Both the position numbers and the translations under genes were made by a program. From the IMG/VR virus record IMGVR_UViG_3300049793_000140, positions 1 to 52,993 of that record: 52,993 nt of DNA, one strand, 5' to 3'. Under the pieces are notes generated by a model. The model saw only the letters and a list, made by a program, of their open reading frames with translations, did no database searches and was not told the DNA's origin. Within the stretch, counting starts at the first letter, position 1; every line of letters begins with the position of its first letter. Positions 2,863 through 31,799 of this stretch are shown here, piece after piece. This stretch comes from a virus. Taxonomy: Duplodnaviria > Caudoviricetes.

Positions 2863-3276
2863 TTAATGCCGGGTATAACGATGCGGCATGTTTTCAAGCA
2901 TCTGCTTTTGGGCTTTGTGGACAGCCGGTTTTTCCTCTGGTGAAATCCACAAAACCACCAAGTCAACCACAGCGATGGCTGCATAGTTGAGATTGTTCAG
3001 CATCATGTTCACATCGTTCGGATCTTTGCTTTGGCTGTCGTGGTAAGCCTGCATTGCGGAAGCGAAAGCCGTTTTTGCGATCTGATAGGAGGCAAAATAT
3101 TGTTTGACCTTTTCGATTTCCGCAGCGCTGGGGCGTCCGGTCGAGACGTATCGATGCCAGGCTGTTTGGGCGAGCGTCACGGCAATATCCATTGCGCCCA
3201 TTGCGGAGTTGGCATTCCGCTCGAAAGTTGCACACCCTAATAAACCGGCAAGTAATATGGTGAGTGCAAGTTTCAT
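2863..3276 (-). CDS. Predicted lipoprotein
   Basis: MKLALTILLAGLLG|C lipobox-type signal peptide. Confidence 0.75.
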   Translation of the reverse strand: MKLALTILLAGLLGCATFERNANSAMGAMDIAVTLAQTAWHRYVSTGRPSAAEIEKVKQYFASYQIAKTAFASAMQAYHDSQSKDPNDVNMMLNNLNYAAIAVVDLVVLWISPEEKPAVHKAQKQMLENMPHRYTRH

Positions 3277-5204: not shown

Positions 5205-5212
5205 CCATTGAT

Positions 5213-5757: not shown

Positions 5758-5768
5758 TGAATACCTAC

Positions 5769-5885: not shown

Positions 5886-6290
5886 TTACCCATTTTTAAG
5901 TTTCTGTTCAGCAAGAAAGTCATCAATGATACGTTGTTTCTCAAGGTCGTTTCGCGTTTGAGTTGCGAGTGCTTTCGCCTGATTTGAATTGTGGTCATCG
6001 GAAATTTTACGTGCAGCGACGGCTTCTAATATTTTCTCTGGATCTTGAGTAAGCCGGGCTACTGCTTCCTGAGCGCTAGCCGCCGTTGCGAGTGCCGTGC
6101 CGAGCGGTCCATCGACCGATTTTTTGATCTCGGACGTGGTATTTTTAATCTCGGCAATTTCTCGATTGTTTTTCTGGCGATGCTTTTTCGACCACCACAT
6201 CGCCATAAATTGCATGATCGCCAAGCCGAGCAATGCCAGATTGTTGATTGCCGTCGAATATCCAGAGTCTATGGCAGAAAACTGTATCAT
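5886..6290 (-). CDS. Membrane protein, holin-like candidate
   Basis: One N-terminal hydrophobic helix (NLALLGLAIMQFMAMWW), a basic patch and a coiled coil; last gene of the late block. Confidence 0.5.
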   Translation of the reverse strand: MIQFSAIDSGYSTAINNLALLGLAIMQFMAMWWSKKHRQKNNREIAEIKNTTSEIKKSVDGPLGTALATAASAQEAVARLTQDPEKILEAVAARKISDDHNSNQAKALATQTRNDLEKQRIIDDFLAEQKLKNG

Positions 6291-8800
6291 AATCGTGTTC
6301 CTCTTCGTCGAGATTTAGCACCGTGCACATTCGTAAGGCTGGTCAGCGGTGCATTCGTAAATGCCGCGAACCGGCTTGCATCAGCACTTAATATCACAGT
6401 GACGTTGCTATTTCCAGACGAAGCCGATGAACCATCGAGGTTTTTCCAGTCAACGAACACCTGCCCATTTGTCAGCGTCGGCGGTGCGCTTAATTGGACC
6501 GATGTGGAGGCAGGATATGTGCGTGTGAATCCCGTAATGCCATTGGACAAGGAGTTGACATCTATCACCGAAAGGGAGATCGGAACGCCCGTCGCCGGAT
6601 TGATCGAACCGACTACAAGGTCGTGATTCACCGGAGCCGGCGCAACGTATGTTGCGACGAAGCTCGCCGGGCTGACTACGAGGTTCGCGCTATTGGCTAT
6701 AATCGTGAAAGCTACAGAAGTCGTGAAATCGACCCCGTTCTTGCTCCATTTCTGGAAATTGTTGCCTCCGGCTGTAGTCGGCGCGGTGACAGTAATCGAC
6801 ACGCCATCGTTGTTTGTTCGGTTGAACGAGGTTACGCCAGCCCCGAGACCGCCGTTGTCATTCGGAGAATATCCAATCGTCACGCCACTCGCGGGATTCA
6901 CGCTCGCGAATGAGAGCGTCCACGTCACAATCGGAGGTGCGATATAAGTTGCCTGCCAAGTCTCGTTCGTCGTCACCGTGAAACTGACGGTGTTGGTAAA
7001 GGCAAAGTCTACCCCAGCGCGGCGCCATTTGCTGAAATTGTTTGTGCCGGCAGTAAGCGGGGCTGCGAGCGTGACGGGCGTGCCGAATAGATAGTTGCGT
7101 ATGAAGCTAGTGGTGCCGGTCGAATTGCCGTCGATATCCGAGGTAGCTATTATCGAGAAGCCGTTGGCCGGCGAGCTGGTTACGGTGATGACATTCGTCG
7201 GCGTGGATGCTGCGCCAGTGATTCGTTCCAGCACGAAGGCTCCAAACTTTGGGAAAGTCTTTGGCCCGGTAACCGTACTCGAGCCGTGAGGTAAGGCCAC
7301 AGTGTGGGATGCTGCCAGCATATTCAGCGTGATCACGTTACCAGGCAGGGTATTGGTTGTGATGTCCACCAGGTAGTCTTGTGCGTTGCGGACACGCACA
7401 GAATCCAGCGTGCTCCAGCCAAGAGTAGCGAGGTTCACCGCAATCGTGGAACCCAGCGACCAATTGTAGGCCGCGATCTGAGCCCGGTTCGTGTCGTACT
7501 GGTTGGGTTGCAGGACAACGTGGTTGGTCGTCGGCAATAAGTTGATCGTGGAGTTATCATCAAACGGCGTGCCGGCAATCCAATTGGCCAGGCTCACCGG
7601 AGCCAATCCCTCGACGCGGAATCCTTGCGCGTTAGTTGGCGTGAAAAAGTAATGATTACGGTCCACTGTCCAGCCCGGAACGATTGTCGTTCCACTGATC
7701 GGGATGTAATCGAACAATTTGGCTGTGGGCGAGTCGATCACTGTGTTGTCCACTATCAGCGCGTTGGTCCACGAGCCTCCCTGCAAGCCGCCCAGACCGA
7801 TGTAATTGTTCGTCACTTCGATCGATGTTGCGTTGATCGAGGTGAAGTAAATGAATACGAGGTCGCTGTTGAACTGAAGATTGTTCCAGACATGATTATC
7901 CCCCTCGTCCCCGTCTTTTCGGCCACCAACTAGCAGCCGGTTGTTTACCAGGATATTGTGGTGAATGAGATAATGGTACACCGACGCTGAACCAGATCCG
8001 TAAGCTTGGATGCTGTTGTCGTAATTGTTAAGAACGACGTTGTAGGAAATGTCCTTTGACTCGCGCGCCGCCGTATTTTGGGTGTAAAATCCATGTCCGT
8101 GAAGCTGCGTCACGCCCACCCATCCATTATTATAGACCACGTTATTGCGTGCGAAAAGTCGACTGGATTGTTGCCAGGCAGATATGCCCGTGCTGACATC
8201 GTGCACTACGAGGTTTTCGATGATGTTGGATTGTCCAAAATTATAGAGGCCGTCGCTCAGAAAGAAATCGGTTGGGAAAGACGGATCAGTCGGCGGTATG
8301 CAAGTCGGACAAGAGACCGTTGAACTAAACCTGTCGGCAGTGCTCGATGAGGTGATTTCGAAGTTGCGCAAGTGAAGGAAGCGCCCCTTGGTGGCGTCGC
8401 TCGATGAGCCTAGCATCAGCGTTGGGCGTGCGGTGGCATGGTACTCGAAGGGTGCGCCAAAGGCTTGGCCATCGATGATTGCCCATTCGTTTGTCGCACT
8501 CTCAACGATGATTTCATTTGCGTAGGCACCGCTGATCAATGCCTGGAAGATGTCGCCTTCGTTGCCTCCAGCCACGTAATGCTCTGGCGAATTCGTAAAC
8601 GCACCTCCTCTCAATTCTAGCTTGTCACCCCCCACTAATGTAGCGGTCTTCGCAAGTGCGGTTCTCAGATCCCAAGGACTAGCAATGGAGCCTGTTCCGC
8701 CAGCCGTGCCATTAGTGGCCGCGAAATAGATCGCTGCTCCCGCAGACTCAGAAAGCATGAGCGCGACGGCTAACAATACTGAGAAAACAATGAGCTTCAT
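6287..8800 (-). CDS. Secreted parallel beta-helix protein with three C-terminal beta-sandwich repeats
   Basis: Sec signal MKLIVFSVLLAVALMLSESAGA|A; GTGSIASPWDL start motif; beta-helix-like N/V/I stacks; three ~80-aa repeats (G.TSF.R.Y....VTL.AP......F.KW). Confidence 0.8.
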   Translation of the reverse strand: MKLIVFSVLLAVALMLSESAGAAIYFAATNGTAGGTGSIASPWDLRTALAKTATLVGGDKLELRGGAFTNSPEHYVAGGNEGDIFQALISGAYANEIIVESATNEWAIIDGQAFGAPFEYHATARPTLMLGSSSDATKGRFLHLRNFEITSSSTADRFSSTVSCPTCIPPTDPSFPTDFFLSDGLYNFGQSNIIENLVVHDVSTGISAWQQSSRLFARNNVVYNNGWVGVTQLHGHGFYTQNTAARESKDISYNVVLNNYDNSIQAYGSGSASVYHYLIHHNILVNNRLLVGGRKDGDEGDNHVWNNLQFNSDLVFIYFTSINATSIEVTNNYIGLGGLQGGSWTNALIVDNTVIDSPTAKLFDYIPISGTTIVPGWTVDRNHYFFTPTNAQGFRVEGLAPVSLANWIAGTPFDDNSTINLLPTTNHVVLQPNQYDTNRAQIAAYNWSLGSTIAVNLATLGWSTLDSVRVRNAQDYLVDITTNTLPGNVITLNMLAASHTVALPHGSSTVTGPKTFPKFGAFVLERITGAASTPTNVITVTSSPANGFSIIATSDIDGNSTGTTSFIRNYLFGTPVTLAAPLTAGTNNFSKWRRAGVDFAFTNTVSFTVTTNETWQATYIAPPIVTWTLSFASVNPASGVTIGYSPNDNGGLGAGVTSFNRTNNDGVSITVTAPTTAGGNNFQKWSKNGVDFTTSVAFTIIANSANLVVSPASFVATYVAPAPVNHDLVVGSINPATGVPISLSVIDVNSLSNGITGFTRTYPASTSVQLSAPPTLTNGQVFVDWKNLDGSSASSGNSNVTVILSADASRFAAFTNAPLTSLTNVHGAKSRRRGTRL

Positions 8801-8934
8801 TAAAATATTGTCTTCTGATTATCCACACTGTACAGTCCAAGGAACACCGCCATAATTGAAAGGCTTTCGCATGGATGGTCTGTCGACCAAGCCCTTACGC
8901 GCCCATTCCAGCGATACCGCAAAAAGTCTCGCAT
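8800..8934 (-). CDS. Possible 44-aa ORF (MRDFLRYRW...KTIF)
   Basis: Fills the gap exactly; its TAA overlaps the next ATG (TAATG); below the ORF-track cutoff. Confidence 0.4.
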   Translation of the reverse strand: MRDFLRYRWNGRVRAWSTDHPCESLSIMAVFLGLYSVDNQKTIF

Positions 8935-8940
8935 GATTGC

Positions 8941-9360
8941 TTAGGGCGTCAACCATAGCTCGTTTCCTACAGCTTCGATTAACAAGGCTCCCCTGACTTG
9001 ATTAGTTGGAATTACTCCAAACCAAAAAACGTTGTTCGTCTGAAATCTCAGCGATAAGCCTGCGGGATTGCTCCAGTAAAGCGTGGTGAAAGCACTAGGA
9101 GCAAAGTTTGTAAATGTGAAGATGGGCGGCGAGCTGACGAATCGAATCAATCGCGGGCCGAGCTTCGCATCTACAGCATCGTTTGGAAGTGCAATCAAAA
9201 GAGTGCTCGCGTTGGTAATAATGAAAATGTTTGTGACGTAAGTGATGTTAGTTGACGGCGGCAATGGAATGTCGGCACTGAGAAGGATTGGCACACGCAC
9301 AGTTTGAGCTTGAATTCCAAGCGCGAGCAAGTTGGCTAAAAGCAAGAGAAACGTTTTCAT
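8941..9360 (-). CDS. Small secreted TN-rich beta protein
   Basis: Signal MKTFLLLLANLLALGIQA|Q; 6 TN dipeptides in 139 aa. Confidence 0.75.
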   Translation of the reverse strand: MKTFLLLLANLLALGIQAQTVRVPILLSADIPLPPSTNITYVTNIFIITNASTLLIALPNDAVDAKLGPRLIRFVSSPPIFTFTNFAPSAFTTLYWSNPAGLSLRFQTNNVFWFGVIPTNQVRGALLIEAVGNELWLTP

Positions 9361-11834
9361 TGGACTGGTAGTTTGAATGGCGACTTGCGTTTGCGGTGTG
9401 GCGTTGTCGGCGAAGGCACGGTAGGATTGAACACGTACGAGTATTCTGCGGAATTCCCGACGTTATCCATCGCTGTCACATAAAAGGTGTGGTTGCCGCC
9501 CGCCAGATTCGAGATCCACACGTGGTTGCTAGGCGAGTAAGCGGTATAACTGTCGCTGTCGAAGTGCCATTTGTAAACGATGTTTGTCGCGGTCGCGGTC
9601 GTGGTCCATGGGATGATTTTGGTATCGCACGCACTCCACTTGATCAATGTTGGATTTGCATCACCACTCCACGGGCCGGAAGGAGCCACGTCAAATGCAA
9701 TCGTTGGAGCCACCGTATCGGTCACTGTCGCGATGCTGGCCTGCTTCACATCGTTGGATAATTGAGCAAACGAAAGACTGCTGCTGATCAAGTATTGTGG
9801 GGTGCGCGTAATGGTGAATACTGCGGTATTCGTTGCCACCTGATTACCCATCACGTCCACGATGCCGACGCCCGTTGTGTTGGTGAGGGTGAGGCTCTTG
9901 AGAGTGCGGTCGTAATTCCATGCAGCAACCACTGAACCAGCCCCGTTCGTAAACCCAAACAAATCCATCGTAGTCGCCGATGAGTTGGTAATTTTTCCCA
10001 GGCCTAACCCGGTAAACGACTTGGCCATCAACAGGGCAACTCCATGAGGTGTTTCCGAGCAGTTATACTCAACGACCGTCGGATCAGTAGGCGATAGGTC
10101 TACCATTACGTCATTGTAGTATTTGCTCCAGTAATTCACGTAACGCATTCCCCATCCTAATGAGCGCAGCGCGGCATAGAGGCACCGATCCACATTGTAC
10201 TGGGAGCGTTGTTGCTTCTCGTTTCGAAGGGTCTCGGGTGAGAACGTCTCGGCCAGTGAAAAGTTGCCTTCGCGCAACGAATCCATCGTCTTCATGCCGC
10301 CGACACTCCAACCGCCCGATTCCGTGTTCCACACGGGCCGTATTCCGGCAAAAGCCCGCGCCCAATCTTGCATTGAAGCAAAATGAACATCACTTTCTGA
10401 AGCGTTGGGATCGGCTGAGCCGTCTTGTGGGTAAATGTGACCGGATACCGCGCTTACTTTTGCCTGCGTGCCGGCTGATAGCGCGTTCCAAATTGTCAGC
10501 GCGTCAGCGGCATGAGCCATTCCCCCGAAGGCTATAATATAGGCTTGCGGATCGGCATCGAGGATTGTCTTCACCGAATCGGTAATCATTGAGGCTATCC
10601 CGGTCAGATTTGTACCCAAGCCAACAGAATCCCATACCGATGCATTCGGCTCGTTCCAAGTCTCCCAGAAATGAATGTTGTACGGCGATTGGCTGTAGCG
10701 ATTGACCACTTGATAAACATAGTTGGTATATGCTGAAAAATTCGGACTCCCGTCGCCATTAGTCGCCCATGTGGGCCAAGCCAGGCCCGGGTACAGATTG
10801 CAAATCGGAACCATTCCGTTCGTCGCGATATTTGCCACCGCAGCATCATTGTAGACGAAAGCGCCGCTTGTGGGCTGAACCGTTGTCCAGCGCACCCCAC
10901 CAATCGGTGAGAGGTCGCGAGCGAAGGCAAATCCACTCCGGCGTTCGCGCAGCATGTGATAAGGCAAATAGTTTGGATGCGTGCCGATGATTCCGTTTGT
11001 ATCCTGCGTCGTGGCGACGGCGTAGGGCAGCACAGCGACCGACGTTTCATCAAAGGAATCGTTTGAACCATAGAGACGACTGATAATGCGCATATAACCG
11101 TTTTGCGTCGGCAATGCGACTGTGACCGTTTTGTTCGTGTTTGCGCTGAGAGCCACGGAGATTGAATTCGAAGCGACCAGGCGGTTGAGGTAGTCGTAAA
11201 TCAGGTATTGGCCCGTGGCGATTGCGGCCGCTCCATCATTCCAGAACCTATACCGGAATTGTTTGGTATCCCCAGAGAGAAGCAGATTATCAGCATCGGC
11301 GGTGTCGAGGCCAAGTTCTACCGGATATTCCGGGGAATACGTCGTAGCGCTTGAACCGGTCTCAAGCTGCACCGCGTCAACGAGTGTGTCGTTGACCAAC
11401 ACGTTCGCCGAGTAAATCTTAGCGTGATACATGCCGTTTGTGCTGAGCGTTGCCGTTGTGCTGAATCTCTGCCAGCCATTGGTAAACGTGACGGAGGTCG
11501 GAGGGGCTGCTTTCAGTTCCCCGCCGCCCATGATTCCAATCTTAACAGTGATGCTCGTTGGACTCCGGCCATACACGCTCATGGTATATGTGCCAGCCGT
11601 GAGCCACATCGCCCTGGAGATGATTCGGGAACCCAGTCGGAATGAGGTAGCCCCATGCCAGGCATCGGAGGTTCGCAGTTCGCCTGCCGAAGAATCAGCG
11701 TTTCCCTTGTTGTCGTTGCCGACGTAATAGATCCAGCCGCGCCCAGGCCCGCACTCAAAGGAGGAGTTTGGAATCAGGTTCGCCGCGCTGGCGCTCAAGA
11801 CCACGCTCCAAAGAAAGACGGCGACTGCTTTCAT
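9357..11834 (-). CDS. Secreted glycoside hydrolase, clan GH-A (GH39/GH5-like), with N-terminal CBM-like domain
   Basis: Signal MKAVAVFLWSVVLSASA|A; NLIPNSSFE CBM start; acid/base motif WETWNEPN; nucleophile motif VWNTESG; C-terminal Ig-like HTFYVTAMDNVGN. Confidence 0.82.
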   Translation of the reverse strand: MKAVAVFLWSVVLSASAANLIPNSSFECGPGRGWIYYVGNDNKGNADSSAGELRTSDAWHGATSFRLGSRIISRAMWLTAGTYTMSVYGRSPTSITVKIGIMGGGELKAAPPTSVTFTNGWQRFSTTATLSTNGMYHAKIYSANVLVNDTLVDAVQLETGSSATTYSPEYPVELGLDTADADNLLLSGDTKQFRYRFWNDGAAAIATGQYLIYDYLNRLVASNSISVALSANTNKTVTVALPTQNGYMRIISRLYGSNDSFDETSVAVLPYAVATTQDTNGIIGTHPNYLPYHMLRERRSGFAFARDLSPIGGVRWTTVQPTSGAFVYNDAAVANIATNGMVPICNLYPGLAWPTWATNGDGSPNFSAYTNYVYQVVNRYSQSPYNIHFWETWNEPNASVWDSVGLGTNLTGIASMITDSVKTILDADPQAYIIAFGGMAHAADALTIWNALSAGTQAKVSAVSGHIYPQDGSADPNASESDVHFASMQDWARAFAGIRPVWNTESGGWSVGGMKTMDSLREGNFSLAETFSPETLRNEKQQRSQYNVDRCLYAALRSLGWGMRYVNYWSKYYNDVMVDLSPTDPTVVEYNCSETPHGVALLMAKSFTGLGLGKITNSSATTMDLFGFTNGAGSVVAAWNYDRTLKSLTLTNTTGVGIVDVMGNQVATNTAVFTITRTPQYLISSSLSFAQLSNDVKQASIATVTDTVAPTIAFDVAPSGPWSGDANPTLIKWSACDTKIIPWTTTATATNIVYKWHFDSDSYTAYSPSNHVWISNLAGGNHTFYVTAMDNVGNSAEYSYVFNPTVPSPTTPHRKRKSPFKLPVQ

Positions 11835-13330
11835 TGGGAAAAGGTCGAAGTCGCTGAACGGATACTTGTCCCCTGCGCTGCGCCAATGTCCGGCTTGCCA
11901 ACTGTGCCGGTGTAACTCGCGGCAGTCTCGGTGAATGTTCCGCGCCCGGTTCCCTTGGCACCCACCAGGTTTATCCGGAAATCTCCGTTCGCCGGATCAA
12001 CCCAGGGGGTAGCATTAGCCGTGTACGTCTGTGAGTTGACGATATTGATACCGGCAATGGTGTTGATTTGCCCGAGATAATTGGTTTGGGTGCCAGACCC
12101 GAAGCCGCAATTGATGATTAAGCCATTGCGAAGCGTAGCCGATCCAGATGTGTTAATCCCCCAGCCGCCATTTTTCACAAAATTGGAATTCTCGATCAGT
12201 GCAAAACAGGCAGCGGTTGAGTTCAAATCCACTCCGTCGAGAATATTGTTGTACGCGTCGCAGTTCAGAATCCAGTTGGACCCCTGTGACCCAAGCGCAA
12301 AGCCATACTCGCCATTCGTGTCAGAGATGCATTCCGAAAATAAACAGAGTGTCGTTGTGCCAGTCGATACTCTAAAGCCGGATGTGTTTGAGCCGGCATT
12401 GTCGTGAGAAATACAGCGTATAAATTCGGTTCCGGTGACGGCATCGAAGAAACCTGCGAGGGCCGCCGTATTACTCTGATTGCAAGCGTAGGCTTCGCAC
12501 TCGATCAATGTCGATGATGCCGTGGCAACATTAACGCCATGCCCGCGAACGCTATTGACGACGACTCCCTGAATAAGACATTCGCCGCCCGTAGCCGAAA
12601 TGCCCGCCGCTGAACCGGTCGAACCGTTGTTTTGGATAATGCAATCAACCAAATCATTATTGACTCCACTCAGGGTAAAGGCGGTGTAACTTGATCCGCT
12701 AGTCGCTCCCGCAATCGTGAACTTTCCGCCGTCCCGAACGCTTGTAGTGTACCCTTGCCAGCGGGTTGGGCCGGCGAGCGAGTGCGTTATTCCCGCTGTC
12801 ATGCTGTAGGAGGTGCCGCTTTTGATGTTCACGCAAGGAACGTTTCCACCAGAATCTGTCATGGTATTCTGCACGAAATTAAACGGAAAACTTGCTGCGG
12901 CATTAGGCCCTTTCCATGCGCCGCCATGTTTCAAAGTAGTGGCGCCCAAGGCATCGGTTGCTGGCGCGGTGCCAGATTTGGCCGTCAAGGAAACCGTGAT
13001 TGTCGTTGAGTTAGTTGCCGTCACACGGGCGACGAATGTCGCGACCGTTGCGCCCGACGTGACATAGACGCTCGCCCAATCGCCAAGTGCAACATTGTCC
13101 GCCGCCGGATTGCCGGATGCCACAGTAAAGATCCCGGTCGTGGAATCCCATCCGCCAGCGACAATCGCGCTGGTATAGGTGTGCGCCGCTGAATCTGCGG
13201 TCGTGGAACCTGCGTTAAGATTGTTCCCGGTGGTCTGACAGTAAAATTCGGTGTATGTAGTGGCTGCCTGCATCACCAAAGCCCCCCTCAAAAGAGCCGC
13301 GAAAAGTAAATAAAGAAAAAGCTGCTTCAT
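11831..13330 (-). CDS. Secreted right-handed beta-helix (pectate-lyase-like/tailspike-like) protein, 499 aa
   Basis: Start moved to MKQLFLYLLFAALL (ATGA overlap with upstream stop); C.AY.N / C.S.DN beta-helix rungs; C-terminal PWVDPANGDFRI...DIGA motif. Confidence 0.8.
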   Translation of the reverse strand: MKQLFLYLLFAALLRGALVMQAATTYTEFYCQTTGNNLNAGSTTADSAAHTYTSAIVAGGWDSTTGIFTVASGNPAADNVALGDWASVYVTSGATVATFVARVTATNSTTITVSLTAKSGTAPATDALGATTLKHGGAWKGPNAAASFPFNFVQNTMTDSGGNVPCVNIKSGTSYSMTAGITHSLAGPTRWQGYTTSVRDGGKFTIAGATSGSSYTAFTLSGVNNDLVDCIIQNNGSTGSAAGISATGGECLIQGVVVNSVRGHGVNVATASSTLIECEAYACNQSNTAALAGFFDAVTGTEFIRCISHDNAGSNTSGFRVSTGTTTLCLFSECISDTNGEYGFALGSQGSNWILNCDAYNNILDGVDLNSTAACFALIENSNFVKNGGWGINTSGSATLRNGLIINCGFGSGTQTNYLGQINTIAGINIVNSQTYTANATPWVDPANGDFRINLVGAKGTGRGTFTETAASYTGTVGKPDIGAAQGTSIRSATSTFSQ

Positions 13331-16300
13331 TTCGTGAGTTGGAGTTGAAAAGTTAACTCGGTTGCCGCCGAACAAGCGGTCAGGTCAAAAGCGAAAATAT
13401 CTCCCGCCGTGACCGTGGTTGAAGTGAAGTCTGTAACCGTGGTGCTGTTCGTCGCGGTTCCCGAAGTAATCCCCAAGCCAGCCGTATTTATTAAATTCGA
13501 GGAGGTCGGATGAGCATTCCCGGAACCGATTTTCCAGCAATTCACGGTCGCCGTTCCTGTGTCTAAGACGATGCTCCAACCGGTGATCGTGGCGCTGTAT
13601 TCGCAAACCGCAAAGCCAGTCCTTTTGCCGGTGGCAATGATCGAGCCGCCGCCGTCCGAAGTGAAACCTAGCGTTGCCAGTTTTAGATTAGTCGCCAGGG
13701 TCGGGCTTGTGGCTGTGCCGGCCAAGTCGCCGGCGAGTTTGATTACGCCGGTCGCCGCTGTGGTCGCATTGCTGACAGTTAACGTTAGATCTGTGCTAAG
13801 ATCCCCCCCGCCAGCGAGTGGACCGGTTGTTGATATTGTCCGTGCATATGGAACTTTTGCCGCCCAGCCGGTGCTTGCAGAGCCGGATTCCTTCCAATAC
13901 ATCGTTGATCCCGCGCCACCGTCTGTACGGATCCAAATGTCTCCAACATTGCCTTGCTGGGCGCTTTCGGGGCTGCCCGTGCCTTTCTTGATCGTCGGGC
14001 CATTGTTTCCGAGCTGCCAGCGCGTCACGTTCGCGTTGCCGAGGGCAAAGGAGTTGTTGTTTGTTGCAAGTGCGCCGAAACCCGCCTGCGTCGTGTTCGT
14101 ATAGGTCAACGTCCCATTGCCATCGAAGTACCCTGCCTGCGCGCCCAAATAGGTATTGTAAGCCCCGGTCAAATTGTCATAGCCGGATCGTGCGCCCAGG
14201 CCGGAGTTTGAGTCAGATGTTGTTGTGTTTTTGAGAACCTCGGCGCCAAGCCCGGAATTGTAATTGCCCGTCGTGTTGCCGTTGCCGGAATACCAACCTA
14301 CGAAACTATTTGAATAGCTGTTTCCAGTCGTTCCGAGGGAAGCGCGTCCGATTGCGATGTTTTTTGAAGCGCTTACTTTGGTCAGTGCTGTATAACCGAG
14401 AATCACGTTGTCACCGCCGTCCGTCAAGTTTTGTCCAGCCTGGCGGCCTATGCCGAGATTGCCCGCGCCAGTGGTTAGATTTTCCAATGCATTTTCTCCG
14501 AGGCCCAAGTTGTTGATCGACCCTGCGATCGTCAGGAAAGTGTTTGTGCCCCCGAGCGCCAGTTGATTTGTCGAAATGAAATACCAAGCGCCTTGCGTCA
14601 GATTACCACCTGACCAAATGGCGTCAAAATTGTCTTCGCCTGTGCCGGATAATCCGCCGCTGGACGGAAACGTGAGCGCGTCTCCGGACGCCTCAACGCG
14701 CTGCCAAGTTCCGTTGCTGACACGGAAACCCATCGTAAAGGCAGAATCCGTATCGTTCGTGATGGTGCTTGTGGCTTCCTTCGTCTCCTCCCGCCAGAGG
14801 GCGGTCGTGACAGTCGCCACTTTAATCGTGCCGATCTGCGTCCCTCCGCTGGTATTCGTGCCGGTGATCTTGGCCCAGTAACCATTCGTGGAATCCGGTG
14901 GCATCGGGAGATTGACGCTGAATGTGGAACCGCTGAAGATCCCCCTGTAAAGATTGGTGTTGATGCTGATGGTTGCAGTCCCCGCGCCGGCAATGGTTCC
15001 AAGGTTGTTTTCGGACAAGTCGATGACGTTGGCGAAAAGATTCGTCGTGTTGCTGCCTGGCGGCGTGGCTTGAGTTCCATCGCTCCGCAGGAACGTTGCC
15101 GTACTTCCGGTCAGAAGAAGCGCGTTGGTCATGTGCGCCAGGGTTGCGGCAATGCCGTTTGTCTTGCTGGCATCGACCGCCAAGAGGCCACTGACAGCAA
15201 CGGTGTTCAGGACAGTTCCGGCTAATGCCCCGCCGCCGCCGGGAAATACAAGGGTGTTGCCGAGATAAAGCGAAGTGACATTCGCATTTCCAATTGTCGC
15301 AGTATTGCTGCCGTTACCAGTTGCCTCGGACCCAATAACGATTTCATTAGTGCCTGAGGTTGTTGAAAGCTGCGCATTTTGGCCGACAATAACGTCGTCA
15401 TTCCCGGTTACATTAGCGCTGCCGGCATTAGATCCAACGTCAACATTTCGCGCACCGCCGTTGTTGTTAAAACCGGCATTGTAGCCAACTGCGGTATTGT
15501 TGTCGCCAGAAGTGTCGTGCTGTAGAGCGCCGACGCCAAGCGCTACGTCTTGCAAAGTGGCGCTGGTACTAAATAAAGCGTTTTGCCCCATAGCAATTGA
15601 ATTTTGGCCACCAGTGACTCCGAACATTGCTCCGGGACCAATAGCGGTTAAACCGCTTAGTCCATCCGTCATTGCTCCCAACGCCGCCAAACCAATTCCA
15701 AAACTTGCGTTAGTGTTTACGTTTATAAAACTATTCGTGTCAGCAAATCCCATCCGTTGAGATCCGAGGCGAAACCAAGGAGAATTTGCAAATGTTGTGG
15801 CGCTTGATCGATATGGCAAATAGCCGTCGGTTGGGTTAATCGTTGTCCCGCCGCCCGCACTGAACGCTGCCCAGCCCGTGGTGCCAATGCCGGTTTGCTT
15901 TACGTAAATGATCCCATTTGAATAATCGGTGTACTCGCTTCCAATGTTCGCCGCCTGCACGCCTTCTGGACTTCCCGATCCATGATAAAATCCGAATCGG
16001 ACGGAGGCTGCGTCAGGTGAACCTGCACTCCACAACAAGGGGACAGCATCGTTGAGCCGCATCGAACTTGTATTGAAATACGCAACATCGACCGTGTTGG
16101 CTGCGATACTGATCGCGCCATTGGGATCGCGAAACATACCTCCACCTGGCGAAGCTAAGGTTCCACCTAGACCGATGGCGGGATTGGTAGCATTGCCTTG
16201 ATTCGTAGTAAAAAACGAAGTTGTCGCCGTGAGTGATCCGCTCATCGCCACAACCGACGAAGAAATCCTTTGGAGCGGACTATCCCCAAGCGTGTTGGTT

Positions 16301-18606
16301 CCCGTGGCGTAAGGAATAAAGGCGGGGGTGAATGGGCCGATCTGTTCAACGATCACGTTCGTGCCCCCTGTTGTTACGTTATCGTACTGACCATTATCCT
16401 TGAGCACTTTTAATCCAGTTCCTGCGTAACCGCTAGGAGACTTGACGTAAAAGTTTGTACTCCCATCGTTCTTGTAAATCGTCAGGCTGCTCGGGCCAAA
16501 CTTAAAGTTGTTGGTGCTTCCGAGTGTTCCAGCAAAATTAAATCCGGGGCTAACGTCCACCGTCAAATCACTGTCCAATTCGACAACTTTTGCGGCGTAG
16601 AAAGTCATTTGAGGAACCGAGCCAGCTCCCTCAGCGATCAGCATTTGATACTGGCCAGTCGGAACCGTGCGGTTGAGATAGAGAGTCCGAGATGATTTGC
16701 TGTAAAGAAATTGCGCGTCATCTGAATCAAGAGAATCCCCACTGAGCTTGTGGAAAACAATGTTACCATCGGCGAGCGTGGCAAAAATATTCGTGCCAGT
16801 CCCGCCATATGAAACAGGCAGTGGATTAAACGTCGTGAAATCCGTTGAGTTGGTTTTAACTACGACCCCAACGCCTCCACCAATTTGCGCAATGCCCGCT
16901 GAATTGACGTTCGCTATCTGCTCGGGATCGCTGGCGAATATTCTGCCACCCGATTTCCAAAAATGATAGATATTAACGGCATTCGTATCCACTGCCGGAA
17001 CCACGCCAGATATCCAGGTGAGTTCGTTCACACCTGCCCCCAACGTATTGGTAAATCCGAGAGTGAAGGTCGTGTTCGTGACCGTGAAGCTCACCTGTTG
17101 GCCTTCGGACATATTGATGATCCCCAAGGTCGTATTGCTCGCTAGTTCCTTTGAGAATTCGTTGCCGAGTCCGCCATCAATATTGACCCCGGAAACATCT
17201 CGAATCGTTGTGCTGAGTGGTCCTTCGACGTTAACAATGCCGCCGACCAGCCGTTTGAGCGGCGAATCCAGGAAAGTTTGAGCGTCGAACCGATAAGGGA
17301 TGTACTGATCAGTGGGATTGATGGCGGCTATGTTCGTGATAAATGTGCCATTGAAGAAAAAGTTTGTAAGGAAAGTATTCGTGGATAGGAATGTTATAAT
17401 GTCGCCCTGAATCGTGAAGACGTTGGTCGAAAAGAAGTTGCTGATCACATTAAGGTTAACCACTGTGATGTTCGTTGTGAAAAAGTTACTGGCATAGAAG
17501 TTGACCGCATTAGTGGTTGCCAGAATTGTTACGACAGTGTTGCTCCCGCTATCTGTTGCCGTAACGCCATCGCCGACGAAATTGATGGTCGTTTGTTGGG
17601 ATAGCGCGGCGCCTTCGTCCTCGATCGTGTTGTAGGCATTTGTCACGCCAACGCTGCCAGTGATAGGGACCGACCAGTGACCTGTGCCATCCAGGAATTT
17701 CAAGATGTCGCTGGGGAAAGTTGCGTTGTCGGCGATTCTCAGAGTATCCACCACGCCCCCCGGTTGGGCGAAACGTAGATAATTGGTGCCAAGTGAAATC
17801 GGACTGTTGGAGAGCGTGTGTGTGCCGATCCACATCGGCAATGTGTTGCTCGTTCCACTTCCGAACAAGAGATTGCTCGAACTTCCACCGACAAAAGTAA
17901 CGTTCGTCAGAGTGATCCCGCTGTTAATTGTAATATTCGTTCCGGTAAGAAGAAAAATATTCGTATCGAATCCGATAAGTCCAATCGATTGCCGCCAGGT
18001 CACATGGCCCGAGCCGTCTTGCGCCAAGACGCTGCCAGGCGTTCCCTGAACCGTCGGCAGCGTGTAGGCTAGCCCGTTTATCGCATAGATGAAGTTCGTA
18101 GCTGAATCCGTATAGATTCGAAGGCCGCCAGAGCCGCCGATCTGGAGATACTTTTGGTTGATCTTCAGGCTTGAAGGAATCAGAGAAAGCATAAATTGGT
18201 TCGTGGTATTTCCACCGGTGAGATTGGAGACAAAGGCGGCATAACCTTTAGATGCAGCCGCGCTCAGGACGGCTGCAATTTTCGTGTTATCTCCAGGCGA
18301 CCCATCTCCAACTGCCCCGCCCCAGCGAAAGTCAACCGGCCCACTGAAACGCCGATCATAAGACCAATTTGCATCGTCGGTGGATTGAATTCTGAAAATG
18401 CCGTCCACGAGGATTGACGAATTGGTAATGACAAACAGACCGCCCCCGCCTTGTCCGGGCACGTCGAAGTCTCGGACGAATACGGACTTGTCCAGATTCC
18501 CAATCTTGCGCGTCTTAAGCGCGGCGACGTTTGGCACCTCATCGACGAAGCGTTGGCCCAGGGCAGGCAGGCCAATTAAGAAAAAGATTGCCAGTAATCG
18601 TTTCAT
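13327..18606 (-). CDS. Large modular tail-fibre/adhesin-like protein with signal peptide
   Basis: Signal MKRLLAIFFLIGLPALG|Q; tailspike-type N-domain (PGQGGGGLF); two blocks of YadA-head-like N.A.G..A repeats; repeated INPTD.Y.PY...T..DSP and GSPE...GW modules. Confidence 0.85.
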   Translation of the reverse strand: MKRLLAIFFLIGLPALGQRFVDEVPNVAALKTRKIGNLDKSVFVRDFDVPGQGGGGLFVITNSSILVDGIFRIQSTDDANWSYDRRFSGPVDFRWGGAVGDGSPGDNTKIAAVLSAAASKGYAAFVSNLTGGNTTNQFMLSLIPSSLKINQKYLQIGGSGGLRIYTDSATNFIYAINGLAYTLPTVQGTPGSVLAQDGSGHVTWRQSIGLIGFDTNIFLLTGTNITINSGITLTNVTFVGGSSSNLLFGSGTSNTLPMWIGTHTLSNSPISLGTNYLRFAQPGGVVDTLRIADNATFPSDILKFLDGTGHWSVPITGSVGVTNAYNTIEDEGAALSQQTTINFVGDGVTATDSGSNTVVTILATTNAVNFYASNFFTTNITVVNLNVISNFFSTNVFTIQGDIITFLSTNTFLTNFFFNGTFITNIAAINPTDQYIPYRFDAQTFLDSPLKRLVGGIVNVEGPLSTTIRDVSGVNIDGGLGNEFSKELASNTTLGIINMSEGQQVSFTVTNTTFTLGFTNTLGAGVNELTWISGVVPAVDTNAVNIYHFWKSGGRIFASDPEQIANVNSAGIAQIGGGVGVVVKTNSTDFTTFNPLPVSYGGTGTNIFATLADGNIVFHKLSGDSLDSDDAQFLYSKSSRTLYLNRTVPTGQYQMLIAEGAGSVPQMTFYAAKVVELDSDLTVDVSPGFNFAGTLGSTNNFKFGPSSLTIYKNDGSTNFYVKSPSGYAGTGLKVLKDNGQYDNVTTGGTNVIVEQIGPFTPAFIPYATGTNTLGDSPLQRISSSVVAMSGSLTATTSFFTTNQGNATNPAIGLGGTLASPGGGMFRDPNGAISIAANTVDVAYFNTSSMRLNDAVPLLWSAGSPDAASVRFGFYHGSGSPEGVQAANIGSEYTDYSNGIIYVKQTGIGTTGWAAFSAGGGTTINPTDGYLPYRSSATTFANSPWFRLGSQRMGFADTNSFINVNTNASFGIGLAALGAMTDGLSGLTAIGPGAMFGVTGGQNSIAMGQNALFSTSATLQDVALGVGALQHDTSGDNNTAVGYNAGFNNNGGARNVDVGSNAGSANVTGNDDVIVGQNAQLSTTSGTNEIVIGSEATGNGSNTATIGNANVTSLYLGNTLVFPGGGGALAGTVLNTVAVSGLLAVDASKTNGIAATLAHMTNALLLTGSTATFLRSDGTQATPPGSNTTNLFANVIDLSENNLGTIAGAGTATISINTNLYRGIFSGSTFSVNLPMPPDSTNGYWAKITGTNTSGGTQIGTIKVATVTTALWREETKEATSTITNDTDSAFTMGFRVSNGTWQRVEASGDALTFPSSGGLSGTGEDNFDAIWSGGNLTQGAWYFISTNQLALGGTNTFLTIAGSINNLGLGENALENLTTGAGNLGIGRQAGQNLTDGGDNVILGYTALTKVSASKNIAIGRASLGTTGNSYSNSFVGWYSGNGNTTGNYNSGLGAEVLKNTTTSDSNSGLGARSGYDNLTGAYNTYLGAQAGYFDGNGTLTYTNTTQAGFGALATNNNSFALGNANVTRWQLGNNGPTIKKGTGSPESAQQGNVGDIWIRTDGGAGSTMYWKESGSASTGWAAKVPYARTISTTGPLAGGGDLSTDLTLTVSNATTAATGVIKLAGDLAGTATSPTLATNLKLATLGFTSDGGGSIIATGKRTGFAVCEYSATITGWSIVLDTGTATVNCWKIGSGNAHPTSSNLINTAGLGITSGTATNSTTVTDFTSTTVTAGDIFAFDLTACSAATELTFQLQLTK

Positions 18607-18618
18607 CGGGTTATTCCT

Positions 18619-18873
18619 TTATGCAGTTCGTGTAAGGGATTCCCACCCTTTTTTAGGGCGCAGTTCGATACCGAATACTGCGTTAACAAAAATAAGGTTC
18701 GACGCGCAAAGGGAACACAACCTTTCCAGGTTGTGTGGCCGGAGAAAACGGCGCGGTAAATAAATGTCCGGCTGGGTTGCCCTCCGTCTGCCCCTTGAAA
18801 GAGAGATAGGGGGGAAGGGGGGTTGTGAGAAAGTCTGGTCCGGAGTCTTGTGTTGTTCTTCATGTCTGCTCAA
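18619..18873 (-). CDS. Possible small hypothetical protein (alternative frame 18603-18863)
   Basis: Two overlapping candidate ORFs fill a 330-bp gap; I cannot tell which, if either, is real. Confidence 0.3.
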   Translation of the reverse strand: MSRHEEQHKTPDQTFSQPPFPPISLSRGRRRATQPDIYLPRRFLRPHNLERLCSLCASNLIFVNAVFGIELRPKKGWESLTRTA

Positions 18874-18933
18874 AATATGTCCAACCCGAATTCTTTACAC
18901 ACCGCAATTTGCTCTTTTGCCTTGTCCAGCGGG

Positions 18934-31579: not shown

Positions 31580-31799
31580 GCCGAGAGGTGATCCCTTCTT
31601 CCGTCCCCAGATCCTCCGGCTCGCTCTTGGCCGCTTTGCCTTCCTCTTTGATCGCAGAGTCTCCGATTTTCACAATGCAGAGTTGCCCGTTGGATTTGAG
31701 CTTTAGAGTGCAAATATCCTCGAAGATCTCCCCTTCGTTAAGACCTTCAGGAACGATGTAGTCCGATGGGGTTTTGAATTCTGGATAGGAAGCGCTCAT
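31548..31799 (-). CDS. Hypothetical acidic protein
   Basis: 83 aa, ATGA-coupled to the upstream fibre gene. Confidence 0.7.
   Translation of the reverse strand: MSASYPEFKTPSDYIVPEGLNEGEIFEDICTLKLKSNGQLCIVKIGDSAIKEEGKAAKSEPEDLGTEEGITSRLTEAYRNRAA

What the first reader, a model, noticed from the sequence alone, without database searches (positions are those of the whole stretch)
6287..18606. A whole block of fibre, spike and glycosidase genes carries Sec signal peptides: a possible exported virion-appendage system
Seen: five late-operon proteins in one block begin with a Lys/Arg n-region, a hydrophobic h-region and a small-residue cleavage site: 1759 aa (MKRLLAIFFLIGLPALG|Q), 499 aa (MKQLFLYLLFAALL..), 825 aa (MKAVAVFLWSVVLSASA|A), 139 aa (MKTFLLLLANLLALGIQA|Q) and 837 aa (MKLIVFSVLLAVALMLSESAGA|A). 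The 370-aa fibre in the head module (31796-32908) does too. Stop/start overlaps support most of these starts. Together they cover about a quarter of the genome. Known: canonical tail fibres and tailspikes fold and attach in the cytoplasm and have no signal peptides. Inference: these receptor-binding or depolymerase-like proteins mature in the periplasm and join particles at or after lysis, or they remodel the infected cell's surface or capsule.
Basis: partly seen in the sequence, partly recalled or inferred. Interest (0 to 1): 0.85.

Follow-up and report, generated by a model that had tools for sequence, protein, structure and literature searches.

The report
Phage fibre and depolymerase genes with export signals
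An uncultivated 53-kb tailed phage puts secretion signals on a whole block of large fibre-like and sugar-cutting proteins, which canonical tailed phages make without such signals, so these proteins probably work or mature outside the host cytoplasm.

Summary
The window is a complete phage genome of 52,993 bp. Five consecutive late genes (6287-18606, minus strand) and a 370-aa fibre-like gene (31796-32908) start with textbook Sec/signal-peptidase-I leaders.

This is not chance or leftover sequence:
- Homologues keep a leader whose sequence has diverged (6/17 identical) while the mature part is conserved (85%).
- Two related phages (G001, G006) carry blocks of different gene content, and every large block gene called there has a leader.
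- Unrelated viral contigs show the same clustering (6 of 6 loci against 3 of 26).
- Lambda and Bacteroides phage B40-8 controls show no leader on any tail protein.

The proteins are:
- a Pel9A-like beta-helix with Ig-like repeats (837 aa);
- a second beta-helix from a virus-dominated family (499 aa);
- a CBM4_9 plus clan GH-A glycosidase (825 aa);
- a 1759-aa protein with a pectate-lyase-like start and tail-spike-like repeats;
- a 139-aa partner protein.

In SP-less phage relatives, the same domains sit behind an N-terminal extension or start exactly at the predicted mature N-terminus, inside tail-fibre modules.

Export is therefore well supported (about 0.85). Whether the mature proteins act as free or cell-associated depolymerases (my preferred reading, 0.5) or arm virions after lysis (0.25) is unresolved. 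The host is unknown. Seven full-text searches found no described precedent.

The parts
13327..18606 (-). 1759-aa protein. It has a leader MKRLLAIFFLIGLPALG|Q (residues 1-17, window 18556-18606), a pectate-lyase-3-like beta-helix start (about residues 20-126), long fibre-like repeats (residues 921-1115 and 1346-1528 are paralogous to the 370-aa protein), a DUF5907 repeat and a C-terminal domain of about 115 aa that resembles the C-terminus of an SP-less phage fibre.
   Evidence: ORF. phrog_4636 tail spike 1.4e-19 and PF19264. All 10 of 10 non-self homologues have leaders. Q18 is invariant in 9 of 9 aligned sequences. Paralogy to the 370-aa protein. The C-terminus matches the L113 335-aa protein (phrog_10330 virion structural) at E 2e-9.
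11831..13330 (-). 499-aa beta-helix protein. The leader is MKQLFLYLLFAALLRGALVMQA|ATTYTEFYC, with the cleavage site placed by homology.
   Evidence: ATGA overlap with the 1759-aa gene. The nearest ESM Atlas clusters are 91-100% viral, 465-484 aa, with Beta_helix/Pel9A-like leads. Of 9 viral-contig homologues, 2 have a leader, 6 start at M-A(Y/F)T(E/N)(F/Y) and 1 is fused into a longer protein.
9357..11834 (-). 825-aa glycosidase. The leader is MKAVAVFLWSVVLSASA|ANLIPNSSFE. It is followed by a CBM4_9-like domain, a clan GH-A (GH5/GH10-like) TIM-barrel domain with invariant NEP (394-396) and E505, an Ig-like (Y_Y_Y/OmpL47-like) domain and a basic C-terminal tail.
   Evidence: Homologues carry PF02018, PF00150 and PF00331. 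Invariant columns. A profile built from the family hits the GH10 enzyme Cex at E 0.021. Leaders are seen in 8 of 12 fetched homologues by heuristic and 9 by eye; 3 have truncated N-termini.
8941..9360 (-). 139-aa protein of unknown fold with leader MKTFLLLLANLLALGIQA|Q. It is the conserved upstream neighbour of the 837/828-aa beta-helix gene.
   Evidence: ATGA overlap with the 825-aa gene. The G001 orthologue (154 aa, 47% identical by BLASTP; 54% over the mature part) also has a leader and Q at +1, and lies directly upstream of the 828-aa gene. Pfam, PHROGs and NCBIfam give nothing. ESM Atlas scores stay below 0.9.
6287..8800 (-). 837-aa protein. The leader is MKLIVFSVLLAVALMLSESAGA|A. It is followed by a right-handed parallel beta-helix (about residues 24-500, Pel9A-like), several Ig-like/InlB-B-repeat-like beta-sandwich domains and a disordered basic tail (819-837).
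   Evidence: AF2 model with mean pLDDT 85.8: helix 2-18, pLDDT below 50 at 17-20, strands from residue 24. Foldseek PDB hits: Pel9A 1.1e-6, GH136, rhamnogalacturonan lyase, PL6, then phage tailspikes at 7e-5 to 8e-4. Homologues carry PF22842, PF13229 and PF18998. 37 of 67 homologues are leader-positive by heuristic, and more by eye.
5886..6290 (-). 134-aa protein with one N-terminal TM segment and a charged, coiled-coil-like tail. It is translationally coupled to the 837-aa gene and may be a holin-like or other lysis-module membrane protein.
   Evidence: Sequence. ATGA overlap. No family hit. The function is inferred only.
31796..32908 (-). 370-aa fibre-like protein in the head/neck region with leader MKKLLWFWFVVMSFSAFA|APP. 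Its repeat domain is shared with the 1759-aa protein.
   Evidence: Sequence. phrog_6002, phrog_23837 and phrog_4636. 41.5% identity to residues 921-1115 of the 1759-aa protein. The repeat domain has 28,539 relatives at E<=1e-3. Of the top 150 (self included), 53 are leader-positive and the rest include classical SP-less fibre N-termini.
18607..18933 (-). 327-bp gap between the 996-aa tail/internal-protein gene and the block. It may mark the start of a separate transcription unit.
   Evidence: Sequence. The sigma-70/terminator scan found no more sites than shuffled sequence gives. This is therefore unproven.
2863..3276 (-). 137-aa predicted lipoprotein (MKLALTILLAGLLG|C), another exported product of the same genome.
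   Evidence: No family hit.

Best explanation
The block encodes late phage proteins of tail-fibre/tailspike and polysaccharide-depolymerase ancestry that have been moved onto the host Sec pathway. Each is made with a cleavable type-I signal peptide, translocated unfolded across the cytoplasmic membrane and cut by host signal peptidase I. It then folds outside the cytoplasm. There the beta-helix enzymes (837 and 499 aa), the CBM4_9 plus GH-A glycosidase (825 aa) and the 1759-aa lyase-like/fibre protein bind and cut envelope or extracellular glycans of the infected cell. At lysis they are released as free enzymes. They would clear capsule or EPS for virion escape, destroy receptors on the dying cell and its debris, and strip neighbouring cells. 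I call them 'exported depolymerases', by analogy with exported versus canonical endolysins. Shown: the leaders, their conservation, the folds and domains, the genome-level clustering and the SP-less counterparts. Inferred: actual export and cleavage, the glycan substrates and the non-virion location.
For: (1) Six textbook leaders are present, against no leader on any tail protein in lambda or B40-8. (2) The leaders look selected for function, not sequence. Leader identity is 6/17 against 85% mature identity for 825 vs P0003, 8/22 against 57% for 837 vs the G001 828-aa protein, and 4/17 against 52% for 825 vs P0007. Leaders are present in 10 of 10 relatives of the 1759-aa protein, 8-9 of 12 relatives of the 825-aa protein and at least 37 of 67 relatives of the 837-aa protein. 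(3) Two phages of the same lineage carry blocks of different composition, and every large block gene called there has a leader. G001 (portal 71%, TerL 74% identical) carries 1247/253/154/828-aa genes. G006 (tail proteins 54-74% identical) carries 398/1373/779-aa genes plus 499-like and 837-like genes. (4) The trait clusters by genome. In 6 of 6 viral loci whose matched ORF has a leader, another ORF of at least 250 aa also has one, against 3 of 26 loci where it lacks one (Fisher p = 9e-5; 3 loci unclassified). These loci include unrelated phages: G002, and L003, which lies next to a baseplate-wedge gene. (5) No extra N-terminal domain is present. The beta-helix-start domain of the 1759-aa protein is preceded by 32-238 SP-less residues in 14 of 16 other viral ORFs, but by the leader alone here and in L084. 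(6) The best structural matches of the 837-aa model are bacterial secreted lyases and hydrolases, ahead of tailspikes. (7) The catalytic-type NEP and E505 columns are invariant in the 825-aa family; their catalytic role is recalled knowledge of clan GH-A. (8) There is precedent for phages running the same enzyme type with or without a Sec leader, namely exported versus canonical endolysins (PMC6116005, passages read). Porphyromonas phage genes with predicted leaders have also been reported (PMC10367356, passages read). (9) An SP-less collagen-like fibre candidate (368 aa, 28116-29222) is conserved in the lineage, so the leader-bearing proteins need not be the only adsorption device.
Against: The proteins look like virion parts. 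phrog_4636 'tail spike' matches the 1759- and 370-aa proteins. The block lies directly after the tail genes. SP-less relatives of the 499-aa protein lie between virion-structural and tail-fibre genes and would have the same mature N-terminus. The C-terminal domain of the 1759-aa protein is homologous to that of an SP-less fibre that precedes the beta-helix gene in L113 and L116. Free depolymerases of known phages need no leader because lysis releases them anyway, so the advantage of export is unexplained. No SignalP run, no expression data and no host are available. The leader calls rest on a crude heuristic and on inspection by eye. No endolysin was recognised in the genome, so part of the block could have a lysis role instead.
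Confidence: 0.5

Rival explanations
1. Post-lysis arming. The exported, processed fibres and spikes are true virion appendages that fold, and perhaps pre-assemble with each other, in the periplasm. They dock onto tail-complete particles only when lysis mixes the compartments.
For: The 1759- and 370-aa proteins match tail-spike and virion-structural PHROGs. The block occupies the tail-fibre position in this lineage, and in L003 leader-bearing genes lie about 5 kb downstream of a baseplate-wedge gene, after three SP-less ORFs. SP-less members of the 499-aa family lie in fibre modules and start with M-AYTEFYC, so the processed and the unprocessed forms would share one mature N-terminus. The order 'fibre C-terminal domain, then beta-helix gene' is conserved between the window and SP-less L113 and L116. 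In-vitro attachment of tailspikes and fibres to particles is classical for P22 and T4 (recalled).
Against: No recognisable N-terminal extension is left in the 1759-, 825- or 837-aa proteins. Block content varies freely among close relatives. The 499-like gene sits at a different place in G006, between two halves of the collagen-like fibre gene, which looks more like a mobile cassette than a fixed structural part. An SP-less fibre candidate exists. Dilution at lysis would make stoichiometric assembly inefficient.
Confidence: 0.25
2. Auxiliary or conversion genes. The block is cargo of secreted CAZymes and adhesins. It would feed the infected cell from external polysaccharides, or alter its surface for superinfection exclusion, with no role in virion exit or adsorption.
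For: The domains (CBM4_9, GH-A, Pel9A-like beta-helix) are typical of bacterial secreted polysaccharide degraders, and distant relatives lie on long bacterial contigs (323 and 449 kb) with their own leaders. The genes behave as cassettes. The Porphyromonas phage paper proposes outer-membrane modification for its leader-bearing genes.
Against: Close relatives (at least 37% identity) were listed on contigs of 56 kb or less. The 499-aa family is 91-100% viral in the ESM Atlas. The genes are co-oriented and translationally coupled with late genes. No integrase was found among the proteins scanned. The 1759- and 370-aa proteins carry phage fibre repeats.
Confidence: 0.1
3. The hydrophobic N-termini are not export signals. 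They could be membrane tethers that localise fibre assembly at the inner face of the membrane, uncleaved signal anchors, or leftovers of recently captured host genes that the phage tolerates.
For: No experimental or SignalP evidence is available. The h-region of the 499-aa protein contains an Arg. Some members have an internal Met that could give an SP-less isoform (837: M15; 499: M20).
Against: Small residues at -3/-1 follow a hydrophobic core, which has a Lys or Arg before it, in all six proteins. The feature is kept across 50-85% identical homologues while the leader sequence itself is not conserved. Q18 at the predicted +1 position is invariant in 9 of 9 sequences. The internal Met is not conserved in orthologues. 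In the AF2 model the helix 2-18 is followed by a low-confidence linker and is not part of the fold.
Confidence: 0.1

Closest known systems
Exported (Sec-dependent or SAR) endolysins versus canonical endolysins, e.g. Lys44 of Oenococcus phage fOg44
   Same: A late phage envelope-degrading enzyme is made with a Sec signal and accumulates outside the cytoplasm before lysis. Closely related enzymes exist with and without the signal (PMC6116005, passages read). This matches the leader-bearing and M-AYTEFYC forms of the 499-aa family.
   Different: No peptidoglycan-hydrolase domain was found. The proteins here are large beta-helix, GH-A and fibre-like proteins, five to six per genome, and the predicted substrates are glycans other than murein.
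Phage tailspike and tail-fibre depolymerases (P22 gp9, Sf6, HK620, Det7 gp208, Klebsiella and Acinetobacter phage depolymerases)
   Same: They share the right-handed beta-helix fold (Foldseek E 7e-5 to 8e-4; BFVD hits). They also share the tail-spike PHROG and a gene position next to tail genes.
   Different: Canonical spikes have no signal peptide and carry an N-terminal particle-binding domain (recalled). Here the leader directly precedes the enzyme domain.
Leader-bearing genes of unknown function in Porphyromonas gingivalis phages ('Nixviridae')
   Same: These are phage genes with predicted Sec/SPI leaders, interpreted as using the host general secretion system to act on the envelope (PMC10367356, passages read).
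   Different: Those are five genes of unknown function noted for obeying the Bacteroidetes Q-rule. They are not described as a contiguous block of fibre, spike or glycosidase proteins. Here only 5 of 15 leaders in the lineage have Q at +1.
Bacterial secreted polysaccharide lyases and glycosidases (Pel9A-like PF22842, PL6, GH136, CBM4_9-GH5/GH10)
   Same: They share the leader-then-domain architecture, the fold and the conserved mature N-termini.
   Different: The close relatives here lie on phage-sized contigs and within phage late operons. They are combined with phage fibre repeats.
Exported phage accessory proteins: lambda Lom and Bor, T5 Llp, spanins
   Same: They are phage-encoded Sec substrates. 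Lom lies just after the tail-fibre gene J in lambda, and my heuristic flags it.
   Different: Those are small outer-membrane proteins or lipoproteins with exclusion or lysis roles (recalled). They are not 500-1800-aa enzymes and fibres.

Membership tests
Sec/SPI (type I) signal peptides | A positively charged n-region, an uncharged hydrophobic h-region of about 8-15 residues and small residues at -3/-1, within the first 15-30 residues | tested here: met
   All six proteins pass my heuristic and inspection by eye. The 499-aa h-region has one Arg. SignalP was not available.
Sec/SPI (type I) signal peptides | The leader is retained as a property, not as a sequence, across homologues, with a conserved mature N-terminus after it | tested here: met
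   Examples: 6/17 leader identity against 85% mature identity, and Q18 invariant in 9 of 9 sequences.
Sec/SPI (type I) signal peptides | Actual translocation and cleavage by signal peptidase I | not testable with these tools
   This needs PhoA/BlaM fusions or N-terminal proteomics.
Canonical phage tailspike / tail fibre | Beta-helix or fibre fold with homology to known virion spikes | tested here: met
   phrog_4636 for the 1759- and 370-aa proteins. The 837-aa model matches P22, Sf6, HK620 and Det7 spikes, although bacterial lyases score better.
Canonical phage tailspike / tail fibre | An SP-less N-terminus carrying a particle-binding (anchor) domain | tested here: not met
   The leader is followed at once by the CBM or the beta-helix cap. 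14 of 16 other viral ORFs with the same domain as the 1759-aa protein have 32-238 SP-less residues before it instead. That these extensions are particle-binding domains is inferred from their position and from recalled knowledge of tailspikes.
Canonical phage tailspike / tail fibre | Presence in the virion | not testable with these tools
   No isolate or virion proteome exists. No cultured relative was found: TerL gave 6 weak hits, and the 499- and 837-aa proteins gave no hit in 50,697 phage records.
Exported endolysins | A peptidoglycan hydrolase or amidase catalytic domain | tested here: not met
   No such Pfam, PHROG or NCBIfam hit in any block protein.
T9SS cargo (Bacteroidota) | A C-terminal sorting domain (type A or type B CTD) | tested here: not met
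   No Por_Secre_tail or TIGR04183-type hit. The C-termini share no motif.
Bacteroidetes Q-rule substrates | Gln at +1 in most SPI substrates (species values above 48%, mean 71%; PMC5837995) | tested here: inconclusive
   5 of 15 leaders in the window, G001 and G006 have Q at +1. Q is invariant in the 1759-aa family, but only 1 of the 37 leader-positive homologues of the 837-aa protein has it. The host phylum therefore remains open.
Clan GH-A glycoside hydrolase (825-aa protein) | TIM-barrel domain with an N-E-P acid/base motif and a later nucleophile Glu | tested here: met
   N394, E395, P396 and E505 are invariant in 8 and in 11 sequences. Homologues carry PF00150 and PF00331. The GH10 enzyme Cex is hit at E 0.021. 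The role of these residues is recalled, not assayed.

The most novel reading that the evidence does not exclude
Several uncultivated lineages of tailed phages have moved their whole outer appendage set (fibres, spikes and partner proteins) to an extracytoplasmic assembly line. The parts are exported by Sec, processed by host signal peptidase and folded in the periplasm. They attach to otherwise complete particles only at or after lysis, so the infectious virion is finished outside the cytoplasm.
Probability: 0.25. Interest if true: 0.9.

Novelty: new variant of a known kind. Interest (0 to 1): 0.72.

Why it matters
Tailed-phage morphogenesis is taught as a cytoplasmic process, and depolymerases are taught as virion-bound or lysis-released cytoplasmic proteins. 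A recurrent, genome-wide switch of large fibre- and depolymerase-like proteins to the Sec pathway means one of two things. Either there is a new class of phage exit or receptor-destroying enzymes that act from the periplasmic side before lysis, or virions are completed outside the cytoplasm. Both would change how receptor-binding proteins and 'auxiliary' CAZymes are annotated in viromes, because leader-bearing ones are easily dismissed as host contamination. The finding also offers well-defined pairs of the same protein with and without a leader for experiments. The families have no member among 50,697 deposited phage genomes, so they are currently invisible to isolate-based phage biology.

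Tried and rejected
- **Structure of the 1759-aa N-terminus.** An AF2 model of residues 1-600 with a 10-sequence alignment gave mean pLDDT 35.6. It is unusable and was not searched.
- **Host identification.**
  - There are no tRNAs.
  - The genome search does not draw relatives for a virus record.
  - The single genome-contig scan returned only distant GH-domain matches (24-35% identical, one 31-residue match at 55%), mostly in Chloroflexota MAGs, which says nothing about the host.
  - The listing of cluster members gave one taxon name only, a Verrucomicrobiota MAG for a 25%-identical beta-helix protein.
  - Shine-Dalgarno-like motifs occur upstream of only 12 of 62 ORFs. This fits a low-SD host such as Bacteroidota but is not specific.
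  - The Q-rule test was inconclusive.
- **Signals.** The promoter/terminator scan of 5000-19500 found no more sites than shuffled sequence gives. I looked for a shared C-terminal sorting motif or a T9SS CTD and found none.
- **139-aa protein.** ESM Atlas scores stayed below 0.9, so no lead emerged.
- **Direct PDB sequence searches** of the 837-, 499- and 1759-aa proteins gave nothing significant.
- **Internal-Met idea.** I considered internal Met codons that would give SP-less isoforms. It was rejected as a general mechanism because the Met is not conserved in orthologues.
- **Single-protein scan of viral contigs** with the 825-aa protein found nothing. The broader alignment failed for genome contigs and was replaced by a narrower one.
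- **Complex prediction** was not used. No pair had a strong enough prior, and a pass would not separate the two main models.

Full report
**What the window is.** The 52,993-bp window is the whole record G000. It has a 29-bp terminal direct repeat, which IMG/VR classes as direct terminal repeats, and CheckV estimates 100% completeness. It is a tailed phage.
- A large terminase (45437-47206) matches phrog_2.
- A 764-aa portal-position protein is 71% identical to one in a second viral contig.
- A YqaJ/ERF recombination pair lies at 592-1991.
- Nearly all genes are on the minus strand.

It has no cultured relatives. TerL finds 6 weak hits (about 25% identity) among 50,697 phage records. The 499- and 837-aa block proteins find none.

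**The observation.** ATGA overlaps couple 1759/499, 499/825 and 825/139. They also couple the 837-aa gene to a downstream gene for a 134-aa single-TM protein. The block is 23.2% of the genome.

SignalP is not available, so I wrote a crude n/h/c-region plus -3/-1 heuristic.
- In the window it flags 7 of 62 ORFs of at least 60 aa: the five block genes, the 370-aa gene and a lipoprotein at 2863-3276.
- In lambda it flags 5 of 73: Lom, RexB (a TM protein), Rz, Bor and one spurious ORF.
- In Bacteroides phage B40-8 it flags 3 of 60: one lipoprotein and two doubtful internal-Met calls.
- It flags no tail protein in either control.
- The genome report for Verrucomicrobia phage P8625 states 0 of 52 proteins with signal peptides (PMC4642752, passages read).

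Six leaders on large late proteins, five of them in one operon-like run, is therefore far from background.

**Are the leaders selected?** Three protein-database searches and one exhaustive HMMER search address this.
- *1759-aa protein, residues 1-600.* All 10 of 10 non-self hits have a leader. In the 9-sequence alignment the predicted +1 residue Q18 is invariant. Only the first 24-59% of the 600-residue query (24-38% for nine of the ten hits) is conserved, and the distal parts differ (PF12708, PF13229, PF05048).
- *825-aa protein.* There are 15 non-self hits, of which I fetched 12. Eight are leader-positive by heuristic and nine by eye. The other three have truncated N-termini. In most, the leader directly precedes the conserved start ANL(I/V/L)PNSSFE of the CBM4_9-like domain.
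- *837-aa protein.* Of 67 non-self hits, 37 are leader-positive by heuristic and several more by eye. The leader precedes the conserved beta-helix cap (…YY/WYA-TNG…SPWDL).
- *Divergence.* Leader sequences diverge much faster than the mature parts while keeping their character: 6/17 against 85% (825 vs P0003), 4/17 against 52% (825 vs P0007) and 8/22 against 57% (837 vs the G001 orthologue). This is how functional signal peptides evolve.

**Related phages.**
- *G001* (IMG/VR contig of 38.4 kb, 70% complete) has a portal 71% and a TerL 74% identical to the window's. It carries a block of 1247, 253, 154 and 828 aa, all four leader-positive. It has no 825- or 499-aa homologue.
- *G006* (26 kb, 48% complete) has tail proteins 54-74% identical to the window's 605-, 266-, 354- and 283-aa proteins.
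  - Downstream of its 1140-aa gene lie leader-bearing genes of 398 aa (homologous to the N-terminal domain of the 1759-aa protein), 1373 aa and 779 aa. An 837-like ORF with a leader runs off the contig.
  - Its 499-like gene also has a leader, but it sits between two halves of the collagen-like fibre gene.

Block content is thus fluid and cassette-like, yet every large member called in these three phages has a leader.

**Unrelated phages.** The same pattern appears in contigs that lack the window's portal.
- G002 (52.6 kb, DTR, 100% complete) has adjacent leader-bearing proteins of 1119 and 1011 aa, followed by small TM proteins.
- L003 (from a 139-kb contig) has five to six consecutive leader-bearing ORFs that begin about 5 kb downstream of a baseplate-wedge gene (phrog_219, 1.9e-16), after three SP-less ORFs.
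- L098 and L115 have several each.

I scanned 35 viral loci; 3 could not be classified.
- In all 6 loci whose matched ORF has a leader, another ORF of at least 250 aa also has one (9 of 30 other large ORFs).
- Only 3 of 26 loci with an SP-less matched ORF do (5 of 99 other large ORFs). Fisher's exact test gives p = 9e-5.
- Caveats: the loci were chosen by homology, a few are near-duplicates, and the heuristic gives some false positives (for example a terminase-like ORF in L001).

**What the proteins are.**
- *837 aa.* The AF2 model (29-sequence alignment, mean pLDDT 85.8) shows an N-terminal helix at 2-18 and a low-confidence linker at 17-20. A right-handed beta-helix runs from residue 24 to about 500. 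Several beta-sandwich domains and a disordered basic tail follow.
  - Foldseek against the PDB ranks Pel9A pectate lyase first (1.1e-6). GH136 lacto-N-biosidases, rhamnogalacturonan lyase and PL6 alginate lyases follow. The Det7, P22, Sf6 and HK620 tailspikes come lower, at 7e-5 to 8e-4.
  - BFVD gives generic viral beta-helix and 'bacterial repeat domain' proteins.
- *499 aa.* The nearest ESM Atlas clusters (0.96-0.98) are 91-100% viral, 465-484 aa, with Beta_helix/Pel9A-like leads.
- *825 aa.* It combines a CBM4_9-like domain with a clan GH-A barrel. Homologues carry PF02018, PF00150 and PF00331. N394-E395-P396 and E505 are invariant. An Ig-like domain follows.
- *1759 aa.* It starts with a pectate-lyase-3-type beta-helix cap, continues with repeats that match phrog_4636 'tail spike', and contains DUF5907.
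- *370 aa.* It is a paralogue of residues 921-1115 of the 1759-aa protein (41.5% identity).
  - Its repeat domain has 28,539 relatives at E<=1e-3.
  - Of the top 150 (self included), 53 are leader-positive, 35 of them with Q at +1.
  - The rest include classical SP-less phage-fibre N-termini.

**The comparison that bears on mechanism.**
1. The beta-helix-start domain of the 1759-aa protein (residues about 20-126) occurs in other viral contigs. I examined 18 of the 20 loci returned. I left out L086 and L087, which match only C-terminal parts. Sixteen of the 18 have a closed ORF. In 14 of these the domain follows 32-238 residues of SP-less N-terminal sequence with typical fibre or spike starts. 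In 2 (L084, which is G001, and L098) a leader is present. In the window and in G001 the leader stands where this extension stands elsewhere.
2. The 499-aa family was found in 9 viral loci.
   - Two have a leader (L111, L115).
   - Six start directly M-A(Y/F)T(E/N)(F/Y) (L112, L113, L116-L119).
   - One is fused into a 1266-aa SP-less protein (L114).
   - After cleavage, or after removal of the initiator Met (removal is recalled knowledge), both forms would begin at the same residues.
   - The SP-less L113 copy lies between a phrog_10330 'virion structural protein' and a tail-fibre-PHROG protein.
   - The C-terminal ~115 aa of that structural protein are homologous to the C-terminus of the 1759-aa protein, whose gene immediately precedes the 499-aa gene in the window (E 2e-9).

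These are therefore proteins of appendage ancestry that certain phages have switched to the Sec route.

**Interpretation.** I put export at about 0.85. Beyond that, two models remain.
- *Exported depolymerases (0.5).* The mature proteins act in the envelope or at the surface and are released as free enzymes.
  - Arguments for it: there is no N-terminal extension before the enzyme domains, and the architecture and best structural matches are those of bacterial secreted enzymes.
  - Further arguments: the genes behave as cassettes, an SP-less collagen-like fibre candidate is conserved (28116-29222), and exported versus canonical endolysins provide a precedent (PMC6116005).
- *Post-lysis arming of virions (0.25).* The appendage ancestry, the tail-fibre gene position, the identical mature N-termini and the conserved 'fibre C-terminus then beta-helix' gene order all keep this model alive.
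- *Smaller rivals (0.1 each).* The block could be metabolic or conversion cargo, or the N-termini could be non-functional or merely tethering.

**Host.** The host is unknown.
- Shine-Dalgarno-like motifs are rare (12 of 62 ORFs).
- Q at +1 occurs in 5 of 15 leaders across the three related phages. This is below the 48% or more seen in over 99% of Bacteroidetes species (PMC5837995).
- No T9SS C-terminal domain is present.
- The only named relatives are distant beta-helix proteins from Verrucomicrobiota and Gemmatimonadales MAGs.

**Literature.** Seven full-text searches returned no paper describing Sec leaders on tail fibres or tailspikes of tailed phages. I saw search listings and abstract starts only, except for four papers in which I read passages.
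- The closest report concerns Porphyromonas gingivalis phages. It notes leaders on several genes, five of unknown function obeying the Q-rule, and suggests outer-membrane modification (PMC10367356).
- The absence of precedent is limited to this library.

**Verdict.** This is a real, recurrent and so far undescribed arrangement: a new variant of phage-encoded exported envelope-active proteins. There is a 0.25 chance that it is something more radical, namely completion of the virion outside the cytoplasm.

Noticed in passing
window 35804-39970 (-): A sugar-modification cassette lies inside the head/packaging region. It holds two methyltransferases (PF13578 1.8e-19; FkbM-type PF05050 2.4e-7), a weak GT2 match (1.7e-4, below cut-off) and a 598-aa protein with a GT4/GT1 domain (4.6e-11). 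G001 has a homologue of the 598-aa protein (52% identity). It may serve virion or host-glycan modification.
   Followed up: partly
window 35165-35497 (-): A 110-aa ORF just upstream of the 438-aa head-region ORF starts with a twin-arginine-like motif, MNRRNFLKNSALALFGFTVLPPA (TIGR01409 at E 0.053, below cut-off). Its C-terminal part resembles residues 299-352 of the neighbouring 438-aa protein (13/31 identical, pairwise E 5e-7).
   Followed up: partly
window 1-6290: No endolysin or peptidoglycan-hydrolase domain was recognised in the ORFs scanned with Pfam, PHROGs or NCBIfam. The only lysis-like candidates are the 134-aa single-TM protein (5886-6290) and the lipoprotein (2863-3276).
   Followed up: partly
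L111 3903-7325 (G006): In this relative the collagen-like fibre gene (368 aa in the window, 28116-29222) is present as two ORFs of 149 and 205 aa. The leader-bearing 499-like beta-helix gene lies between them. This points to cassette insertion or gene fission.
   Followed up: partly
window, all genes: Shine-Dalgarno-like motifs lie upstream of only 12 of 62 ORFs, and the upstream regions are A-rich. This hints at a host with SD-poor translation initiation.
   Followed up: partly
window 6287-8800 and 9357-11834, C-termini: Both enzymes end in short basic tails (…HGAKSRRRGTRL; …HRKRKSPFKLPVQ). Orthologues keep them (G001 828 aa …NRRRGAR; P0003 …HRKRKSPLKLPVQ). In the 837-aa model the tail is disordered. 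Its function is unknown.
   Followed up: no
L116 9441-12202 (G008, complete DTR genome): One phage has an SP-less copy of the 499-aa family directly followed by two leader-bearing proteins of 530 and 389 aa. SP-less and leader-bearing appendage-region proteins can therefore coexist in one genome.
   Followed up: no
window 1-29 and 52965-52993: A 29-bp exact terminal direct repeat is present, consistent with a circularly closed assembly of a complete genome.
   Followed up: yes
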